NCBI GenBank assembly: GCA_951406725.2
Contig: OX597821.1
Span: 73,904,001 to 73,968,000, forward strand
Source: Octopus vulgaris
Lineage: Eukaryota
DNA length: 64,000 nt
Reading direction: 5' to 3'
Shown: positions 26,390 through 35,743 of the stretch, one piece after another
Position numbering within the stretch: position 1 is the stretch's first letter
How the letters are laid out: every line of letters starts with the position of its first letter
The notes under the pieces: model-generated
Databases searched by the model: none
Told to the model about the DNA's origin: nothing
What the model saw: the letters and a program-made list of their open reading frames with translations, nothing else
Position numbers and translations under genes: made by a program

Positions 26390-27181
26390 ATAATAAGGTC
26401 AGTCGGGCACCATTTATGAGAAAGACAGCACCATGACGCAATTCACTCTGCCAGATATTTGGAAATGACATGTTGTACGACTTGTCATTTGCACCGGAGG
26501 CTCCAATACGAACAGATATTGAACGCACAGAACAACCGTTGGCTTGTCGTGTCCACAAAACATGTAGCAAGAGTGATAAAAATCAAAGATTCAATCAACG
26601 CCATGGAGTTTGGAGTGAACACAAGCGATGGCGGTGTTATGCCTCCATTCATCTTCCCACATGACCTTACACTCAACACGGAGGCCTACATCAAGTGCCT
26701 AGAAGAAGTAGTGCTGCCCTGGGTGAAGGGTGGCTACCGGAAGACTCTTTGTCTGGCAACATGTCTCTGCAACATGTCACACAAGCAGGAGAACCCAATC
26801 ATGGATGTCAGACAATTTCTGCGACCACATCAACCCTAACATCTGGCCAACTAACTTCCGCGACTGCACTCCCCTTGATTATTATGTGTGGGGTGCATTC
26901 GAGCGAGGGACCAACGAAACACCTTGTAACACCAAAGATGAAGTGAAGGCAAGGATTATGGCAGCATACATCAACTTAAACAAGGAGATCGTCCAGAAGA
27001 GTTGCAGGATATTCTGAAGTCGTCTGGAGACAGTTGTTGAAGCTAATGGCGATAGAATAAATTTACTCTTTAGTATTTCGAAATATTTTTGTGTGATTTT
27101 GGTAAATATATCTGTTAAAAATGAGATGTCAGTGATATTTTCATTTTTGCATATTTTAGACAATTTATTCACCGCACCCCG

Positions 27182-34453: not shown

Positions 34454-34670
34454 AGGCGGCGTGCTGGAAGAATCGTTAGCACAGTGGAGGAAATGTTTAG
34501 CGGTATTTCGCTTGTCGCTAAGTTCTGAGTTCAAATTCCGCCGAGGTCGACTTTACCTTACATATTTACGGGGTCGATAAAATAAGAACCATTTGAACAG
34601 GGTGATCATGAGGGTTGATATAATCGACTTATCCCATTCTTCGAAATTGCTGACCTTGAGCCATCATTTA
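34454..34670 (+). mobile_element. SINE family B
   Basis: gttctgagttcaaattccgccgaggtcgac...ggggtcgataaa core. Confidence 0.8.
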
Positions 34671-34692
34671 GAGTCATCATCATTCCCCGCAC

Positions 34693-34744
<52 letters not shown>

Positions 34745-34847
34745 CGCAGGCTGTGTGGTACCTTGGGCAAATGTCTTCTACTATAGCCTCGGGTCGACCA
34801 AAGGCTTGTGAGTGGATTTGGTAGACGGAAACTGAAAGAAGCCTGTA

Positions 34848-34878
<31 letters not shown>

Positions 34879-35086
34879 TTTTGAGTAGTTGAATGAATTA
34901 TCTTATTAAGGATAATTCGAAAGGTAACCGATACCTGGGTAGCAAATTCACATCAGAAAGAACACGGTTGAAGCTACGTCCCTAGGGCATAGACTACGTG
35001 TCTTCGTGCGGAAATTTGTATGTTTATTTTAAAATTATAAGTATATGAAAGAATGGAGTTGAACGACTAGTTAACAAATATCCTTA

Positions 35087-35171
35087 ATTCTCGACATATG
35101 TTTCGAAGGCTGCATATTCCTAATTCCGAAGGAATAAGGAGTACATTATGCAGATTTCTCATCAGGAAAAT
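35087..35171 (-). ncRNA. Type I hammerhead ribozyme, canonical core (minus copy)
   Basis: Reverse complement of 35278-35362. Confidence 0.85.
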
Positions 35172-35277
35172 CAAGGAACTTATGTCGACATCAAAATGCA
35201 CAAAAAACTTTTAGCTGACCGCTCTCAAGGAGCCCATGGCGTTTTTTGTGCATTTTGATGTCGACATAAGTTCCTTG

Positions 35278-35362
35278 ATTTTCCTGATGAGAAATCTGCA
35301 TAATGTACTCCTTATTCCTTCGGAATTAGGAATATGCAGCCTTCGAAACATATGTCGAGAAT
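35278..35362 (+). ncRNA. Type I hammerhead ribozyme, canonical core
   Basis: attttc-CTGATGA-gaaatctgcata...tatgcagccttc-GAAA-catatg-TC-gagaat. Stem I is 6 bp, stem II is gaa/ttc plus ctgcata/tatgcag, stem III is palindromic acatatgt, and the predicted GUC cleavage is after 35356. Confidence 0.87.
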
Positions 35363-35407
35363 AAAGGATATTTGTTAACTAGTCATTCAACTCCATTCTT
35401 TCATATA

Positions 35408-35474
<67 letters not shown>

Positions 35475-35743
35475 TTGTGTGTCTGTACTTGTCCACCCAC
35501 CATCGCTTGACAACCGATGCTGGTGTGTTTACGTTCCCCTAACTTAGCGGTTCGGCAAAAAGAGACCGACAGAATAAGTACTAGGTTTACAGAGAATAAG
35601 TTATGGGGCCAATTTGTTACCGAAGAAAGTAAAAGAGTAATAGTCATCATAAAAAACAGCTTACATACAAACAAATATATGCACGAACAAGAAGCAAACG
35701 CTGCACCACATGTAGGCATATATATATACTACACCACAAAGTT

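What the first reader, a model, noticed from the sequence alone, without database searches (positions are those of the whole stretch)
35036..35413. Hairpin with 173-bp arms carrying a canonical hammerhead on each strand, nested in a SINE microsatellite
Seen: a near-perfect inverted repeat places an intact CUGAUGA/GAAA/GUC hammerhead with a ~52 nt stem II in both polarities. A transcript in either direction therefore contains a ribozyme plus its full antisense. The unit lies within the internal (TA)n of a SINE A copy. Established: inverted partial terminal repeats occur at Penelope 5' junctions. Inference: this is a young insertion whose fold-back could mask cleavage or yield long dsRNA for ADAR or Dicer.
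Basis: partly seen in the sequence, partly recalled or inferred. Interest (0 to 1): 0.72.

Follow-up and report, generated by a model that had tools for sequence, protein, structure and literature searches.

The report
Twin-armed Penelope insertion with long hammerhead
This hairpin is two head-to-head end pieces of one young Penelope-type jumping gene pasted into a TA repeat, a layout already described for such elements and common in this genome, so the mirrored ribozyme motif is likely a by-product of how the element inserts rather than a designed RNA switch.

Summary
Observation confirmed: 173-bp arms (2 mismatches), a type I hammerhead motif on each strand, inside the (TA)n of a SINE-like repeat. 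Stem II is 54 nt, not ~52. The insert (about 34871-35413) is the 3' end of a young, protein-coding Penelope-like element (PLE) resembling the Hydra clade: a long arm plus an inverted short arm, ending at two fixed sites 156 nt apart. The layout is routine: 558 long ends, 128 short ends and 279 exact motifs genome-wide; 9 close head-to-head pairs among the first 100 motifs listed. Opposite-strand hammerheads are published (PMC4209133; Penelope-13_HM in PMC8557442), and this scan found the same layout before on other DNA (e.g. e1-10339263). In 15 of 22 two-armed copies the short arm carries sequence that the long arm lacks, so simple fold-back is excluded there; both cut target strands are likely primed separately. 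Folding predicts full masking if transcribed, but no locus-specific RNA was found. Unusual family traits: a covarying 54-nt stem II, a 156-nt tail, and loss of the Hydra zinc linker (0 of 9 copies; 117 of 120 homologues keep it) while TA targeting persists.

The parts
34743..34845 (+). 5' half of host SINE-like repeat; about 60 nt of its head (A/B-box-like part, labels recalled) deleted in this copy
34846..34870 (.). left part of the target (TA)n
34870..34882 (-). A13 run at the long end (family end normally has 3 A); slippage or assembly homopolymer error, unresolved
34880..35240 (-). long arm: 361-nt 3' end (pseudo-LTR) of the PLE, 5'-truncated at 35240, ending at the fixed long site
35077..35187 (-). 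type I hammerhead motif of the long arm (CUGAUGA 35165-35159; predicted cut between 35093 and 35092)
35209..35240 (-). 32-nt hairpin loop: native element sequence present in the long arm only
35241..35413 (+). short arm: inverted copy of element positions 33-205, ending at the fixed short site; 1-nt microhomology at the junction; junction unique in the assembly
35272..35368 (+). type I hammerhead motif of the short arm: stem I, CUGAUGA 35284-35290, 54-nt stem II 35291-35344, GAAA 35345-35348, 2-bp palindromic stem III, predicted cut after 35356
35410..35456 (.). right part of the target (TA)n
35457..35640 (+). (TG)n and 3' half of the host SINE-like repeat

Best explanation
The hairpin is one recent insertion of a Hydra-like Penelope retrotransposon whose two head-to-head end pieces were likely copied from element RNA onto the two cut strands of a TA repeat, so the mirrored, predicted hammerheads are likely a by-product of insertion. 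Shown: both arms are pieces of the element's end repeat, which lies downstream of an RT + GIY-YIG-type ORF and also runs into the ORF start in partial tandems; arms stop at two fixed sites (about 55 and 212 nt after the predicted cut) next to (TA)n; inner junctions vary from copy to copy. Inferred: the endonuclease cuts both strands of a (TA)n; reverse transcription starts at the long site from one strand and at the short site from the other; the two cDNAs stop early and are joined. When both run past the hammerhead, as here, a perfect hairpin results. The hammerhead's likely job is in the parent element's RNA (cutting tandem transcripts as a dimer or with protein help), not at this locus, where any read-through RNA is predicted to bury it because the antisense arm is made first in both directions.
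For: Family: 40 places scored of 2781 candidates, all 98-100% identical over about 360 nt. ORF upstream with DKT, RT motifs, GIY-YIG-like and CxxC/CxH motifs; the same 361 nt runs into the ORF start in L038-L047. Genome-wide exact counts: long end + TA 558, short end + TA 128, hammerhead motif 279, with 9 minus-then-plus pairs less than 250 bp apart among the 100 listed; controls 0. Of 30 loci picked by the short end, 22 have an adjacent opposite arm reaching the long end, 2 have an interrupted or three-armed partner, 6 none. In 15 of those 22 the short arm reaches further 5' than the long arm, in 10 they do not overlap at all. Both ends recur in subfamilies 68-90% identical, in either role. 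Hammerhead core invariant except N7 and H17 in 10 of 10 aligned copies; 10 of 29 pairs show two-sided changes, 0 of 500 shuffles reach this. Published: PAc cuts and extends both strands from two internal start sites (PMC11167929); inverted 5'-truncated copies and (TA)n targets in PLEs, and a hammerhead on both strands of Penelope-13_HM (PMC8557442 passages, section 11, supplement part 2); dual hammerheads 100-700 bp apart on opposite strands (PMC4209133).
Against: For this copy alone the short arm (33-205) lies inside the long arm (1-361), so a fold-back origin is not excluded here; 7 of the 22 pairs are likewise nested or equal. Long+short pairing is not absolute: L073 sits beside a long-long pair and the short-end list holds a possible short-short pair (C15:1518613/1518918). 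Much of the covariation comes from one divergent sequence (L062), and the 10 rows are related. Pfam gave RVT_1 only below its cut-off and no GIY-YIG match; the endonuclease call rests on motifs compared by eye with the paper's alignment and on homologues. No cleavage or priming was tested.
Confidence: 0.85

Rival explanations
1. Fold-back: one cDNA made from the long end snapped back at 35240 and copied itself to give the short arm.
For: In this copy the short arm is nested in the long arm and the arms differ at only 2 of 173 sites; arms of one locus share non-majority variants at 8 sites over 19 arm pairs.
Against: No pairing at the turn (1-nt microhomology); the short arm stops at a fixed site used 128 times; 15 of 22 paired copies have short arms with sequence absent from the long arm. 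Shared variants also fit one RNA source.
Confidence: 0.08
2. The hairpin is functional at this locus: it is transcribed, edited by ADAR or diced into small RNAs that silence the family.
For: A 173-bp, 99% duplex is predicted and is the kind of substrate these enzymes use (own knowledge); many such hairpins exist in the genome, so a collective silencing effect is possible.
Against: Nothing marks this copy out from its sisters; the host repeat's promoter-like head is deleted; no host exon was recognised among ORFs of 120 aa or more in the window (by eye; small exons would be missed).
Confidence: 0.05
3. The inversion is an assembly or library artefact.
For: The junction occurs once in the assembly.
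Against: The arms differ at two sites, each arm carrying one change against its sisters; the outer ends fall on the family's fixed sites; joints between other inner points of the same two arms occur in contigs of an independent run (table 5).
Confidence: 0.02

Closest known systems
Hydra clade of C-terminal EN+ PLEs (Craig et al. 2021, PMC8557442), including Penelope-13_HM and Hydra-1_Obim
   Same: DKT and RW motifs, CxxC and CxH around the nuclease end, hammerhead in the 3' repeat with short palindromic stem III, (TA)n targets; Penelope-13_HM has an inverted 5'-truncated copy with a hammerhead on both strands (supplement part 2).
   Different: No CxCx5C linker (replaced by a 160-185 aa Asn/Ser-rich span); ORF about 900 aa, element above 3 kb; stem II 54 nt against about 10-24 nt in the 26 Hydra rows of File S2; sequence differs clearly from Hydra-1_Obim (by eye).
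PAc (Poseidon) of Anolis carolinensis (Frangieh et al. 2024, PMC11167929)
   Same: Two fixed internal start sites that define insertion ends; AT-rich targets; both strands cut and extended; hammerhead near the pLTR-ORF junction.
   Different: Other clade; tail quoted as 30-40 bp there, 156 bp here; both ends here share 4 nt with the TA target, whereas PAc was reported to start at a site not homologous to the cut DNA.
PLE minimal hammerheads of Schistosoma and other animals (Cervera and de la Pena 2014, PMC4209133)
   Same: Type I, weak palindromic stem III, dual motifs on opposite strands 100-700 bp apart.
   Different: Their helix II is 6-8 bp; here about 20 bp in two segments.
PLE-X1_sMoe hammerhead (PMC8557442, File S2)
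   Same: Stem II plus loop of about 53 nt, so a long arm in a PLE hammerhead has a printed precedent.
   Different: Spike-moss, endonuclease-less, rDNA-targeting element of another clade.

Membership tests
EN+ Penelope-like element | Single ORF with RT followed by GIY-YIG endonuclease | tested here: met
   Open 904-aa and 891-aa natural frames in L110, L109 and a 713-aa part in L100; RVT_1 E=0.002, below cut-off; 458 homologues at E<=1e-20; GIY-YIG by motif only, no Pfam match
EN+ Penelope-like element | Pseudo-LTR formed by partial tandem: 3' end repeated ahead of the ORF | tested here: met
   The 361-nt end runs into the ORF start in L038-L047
EN+ Penelope-like element | Hammerhead motif in the pseudo-LTR | tested here: met
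   activity untested
EN+ Penelope-like element | Inverted 5'-truncated copy at the 5' end and a one-sided tail | tested here: met
   22 of 30 short-end loci; tail 156 nt rather than the usual 30-40
Hydra clade | DKG changed to DKT; N-terminal RWK motif | tested here: met
   SDKT and RIRWLAFF (RWL, a variant) in L099, L102, L109, L110
Hydra clade | [quoted passage not shown] | tested here: met
   CGICNSE..N..CLH in L031, L033, L098, L100
Hydra clade | CxCx5C linker before the nuclease | tested here: not met
   0 of 9 natural copies; 117 of 120 homologues have it, the 3 misses end or shift frame before it. Filed therefore as a Hydra-like variant, not a strict member
Hydra clade | Insertion into (TA)n | tested here: met
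   30 of 30 loci end in TA runs; 558 and 128 exact end+TA matches (these patterns demand TA)
Hydra clade | Placement in the clade on an RT tree | not tested
   Reference proteins were seen only in a paper's supplement and were compared by eye
Type I hammerhead ribozyme | CUGANGA, GAAA, UH core with stems I-III | tested here: met
   Core intact in both arms; conserved in 10 of 10 aligned copies; isolated motif 2.2 kcal/mol above the MFE when forced; no Rfam hammerhead match
Type I hammerhead ribozyme | Self-cleavage | not testable with these tools
   Only contigs were available
Non-LTR retrozyme | Non-coding tandem monomers | tested here: not met
   Upstream sequence is a coding PLE, not a repeat of the unit

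The most novel reading that the evidence does not exclude
This lineage has lost the zinc linker proposed to steer PLEs to microsatellites yet still lands in (TA)n, and both fixed start sites end in four bases that match the TA target; targeting would then come from RNA-target pairing at two start sites 156 nt apart, primed on both cut strands, with the 54-nt stem II as a possible protein handle. Its hundreds of near-identical copies would be a natural record of PLE twin priming.
Probability: 0.25. Interest if true: 0.6.

Novelty: new variant of a known kind. Interest (0 to 1): 0.27.

Why it matters
The hairpin itself matters little: it is one of dozens made by routine insertion. The family is of some use because it bears on two open points named in PMC8557442: how inverted PLE ends form and what directs PLEs to microsatellites. 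Non-overlapping arm pairs argue against fold-back, and loss of the zinc linker with TA targeting kept argues that the linker is not required. Collectively such hairpins could feed ADAR or Dicer, which is untested.

Tried and rejected
Rfam: 0 matches at gathering score in the window; at E<=10 only generic miRNA-hairpin and low-complexity matches, no hammerhead. A short-stem hammerhead pattern (gap 10-40) missed the motif and gave chance-level counts. No RNA holder listed. Contigs of 7 runs were laid in two calls (43: four runs; 52: four runs, one repeated): none bridged the 35240/35241 junction, runs guessed to be RNA went on into native element sequence at 35241, and no A>G or T>C change was listed; contigs cannot show absence, editing, ends or strand, so this is no evidence either way. 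Shared inversion point: 1 match only. Retrozyme reading rejected (coding upstream sequence). miRNA reading rejected (all matches far below gathering score). Target-site duplication cannot be read inside (TA)n. Search of earlier findings by sequence and nearby place gave nothing, nor by words for linker loss. Paper searches: octopus + Penelope + hammerhead gave 5 papers, 4 listed, none on this family by title; Penelope-like + twin priming + inverted gave 2 unrelated titles; the ADAR search was seen as a listing only. These searches do not cover subscription papers or Repbase. Supplements of the bioRxiv retrozyme preprint were not opened.

Full report
Observation. The inverted repeat is real: arms 35036-35208 and 35241-35413, 99% complementary, 32 nt apart, with two mismatches and a fold 42.7 standard deviations below shuffles. 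Each strand carries CUGAUGA, a 54-nt insert, GAAAC-AUAU-GUC and a closing stem I. Stem III is two pairs around a palindrome. Rfam finds no hammerhead here. The flanks are two halves of a dispersed repeat that are joined by a short TA/TG run in most other copies; this copy has lost about 60 nt of its head. Calling it a SINE is recalled.

What it is. The stretch 34871-35240, read on the minus strand, found 2781 candidates in the own genome; the 40 places scored are 98-100% identical. All 30 fetched loci end at the same point in a TA run and are cut off at different points upstream. Upstream sequence encodes a reverse transcriptase and a GIY-YIG-like nuclease, and in partial tandems the same 361 nt runs into the ORF start. 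It is therefore the end repeat of a Penelope-like element. Motifs match the Hydra clade as described in PMC8557442 (section 11 and supplement passages), except that the CxCx5C linker is missing in 9 of 9 natural copies, while 117 of the 120 listed homologues have it and the other 3 break off before it. Pfam supports RT only weakly and the nuclease not at all.

How common the layout is. Exact patterns give 558 long ends and 128 short ends beside TA, and 279 intact-flank hammerheads, with reversed-pattern controls at 0. Among the first 100 motifs listed, 9 head-to-head pairs lie under 250 bp apart and 5 more under 4 kb (counted from the table). Of the 30 loci chosen for a full long arm, 12 (this one included) have an inverted partner covering the hammerhead. 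The junction of this copy occurs once. Other family copies sit in the same host repeat (L025, L019). Published precedents: dual hammerheads on opposite strands 100-700 bp apart (PMC4209133, part 1 and passages) and a hammerhead on both strands of Penelope-13_HM. Earlier notes of this scan report the same layout and long arms on other DNA.

Mechanism. Of 30 loci chosen by the short end (the first 30 of 128), 22 have an adjacent opposite arm that reaches the long end, 2 an interrupted or three-armed partner, 6 none (three of the 22 completed). In 15 of the 22 the short arm reaches further 5' than the long arm and in 10 the arms do not overlap, which a fold-back of the long arm cannot give. Both ends recur, about 50-70 and 205-225 nt after the predicted cut, in subfamilies down to 68% identity, and either can end the full-length element. 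With the report that the Anolis PLE protein cuts and extends both strands from two internal start sites (PMC11167929, parts 1-2 of 4), the likely model is separate priming on the two cut strands, then joining of two truncated cDNAs. This is inferred. In this copy the short arm is nested, so fold-back is not excluded for it alone. Both native start sites share four bases with the TA target, which leaves the exact break ambiguous and suggests, without proving, pairing-assisted priming. Exceptions exist (a long-long pair at L073, a possible short-short pair on C15).

The ribozyme. In 10 aligned copies chosen from several subfamilies the core changes only at N7 and H17; 89% of cells pair, 10 of 29 pairs change on both sides, 7 of 12 in lower stem II, and no shuffle of 500 reaches this, with slid controls at 37-46% paired. 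Many of these changes come from one divergent row. Stem II is over twice as long as in the 26 Hydra rows of File S2, though PLE-X1_sMoe has a similar span. Alone, the active fold lies 2.2 kcal/mol above the minimum; in the hairpin it costs about 122 kcal/mol in either direction, and the antisense arm is transcribed first both ways, so masking is predicted. Cleavage is untested, and monomer inactivity would be expected from PMC4209133.

Age and expression. Arms differ at 2 of 173 sites; 19 arm pairs differ at 48 of 2964 sites: recent, undated. No RNA run on record holds the stretch and no contig bridged the junction; this says nothing either way. No host exon was recognised in the window (by eye).

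Verdict. A real, ordinary two-armed insertion of a Hydra-like PLE. The mirrored hammerhead is known and frequent; the family's long stem II, 156-nt tail and lost zinc linker are modest variations worth recording. Interest 0.27.

Noticed in passing
L062, L112-L126: A sister subfamily about 68% identical in the hammerhead region has many 100% identical copies (1260 candidates): younger still, same two ends, 55-nt stem II, GUA cut site.
   Followed up: partly
L035:4882-5956: Tandem of about 540 bp (98.5% identical) carrying another hammerhead-like motif with a 51-nt stem II (5154-5259); retrozyme-like.
   Followed up: no
L026:1051-1150; L126:1077-1188: Unrelated hammerhead-like motifs with 45- and 57-nt stem II, so long arms are shared by several families here.
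   Followed up: no
L109:966-3638; L110:962-3673: Natural open frames of 891 and 904 aa in an older subfamily, with a 177-179 aa cysteine-poor span in place of the zinc linker.
   Followed up: partly
window 34870-34882: A13 run at the long end where sisters have three A (L002 has about eight); slippage or homopolymer error.
   Followed up: no
window 51272-52439 (-): Decayed RT and cysteine-linker pieces of another Penelope-like element (label recalled).
   Followed up: no
window 13540-14439 (+): Fragment resembling the C-terminal zinc-binding part of a non-LTR retrotransposon between two long microsatellites (label recalled).
   Followed up: no
window 4356-4757 (+) and 26420-26839 (+): Fragments resembling Tc1/mariner transposases (label recalled).
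   Followed up: no
window 17286-17775: 2.6 tandem copies of a 185-bp unit, 96% alike, resembling a second dispersed repeat also seen near 34455-34690.
   Followed up: no
window 8307-9306: A (TA)n array of exactly 1000 bp; may be an assembly-limited length.
   Followed up: no
G000:C11:77462434-77462712; G000:C15:1518613-1518948: Clusters of short ends that may be short-short or three-armed insertions.
   Followed up: no
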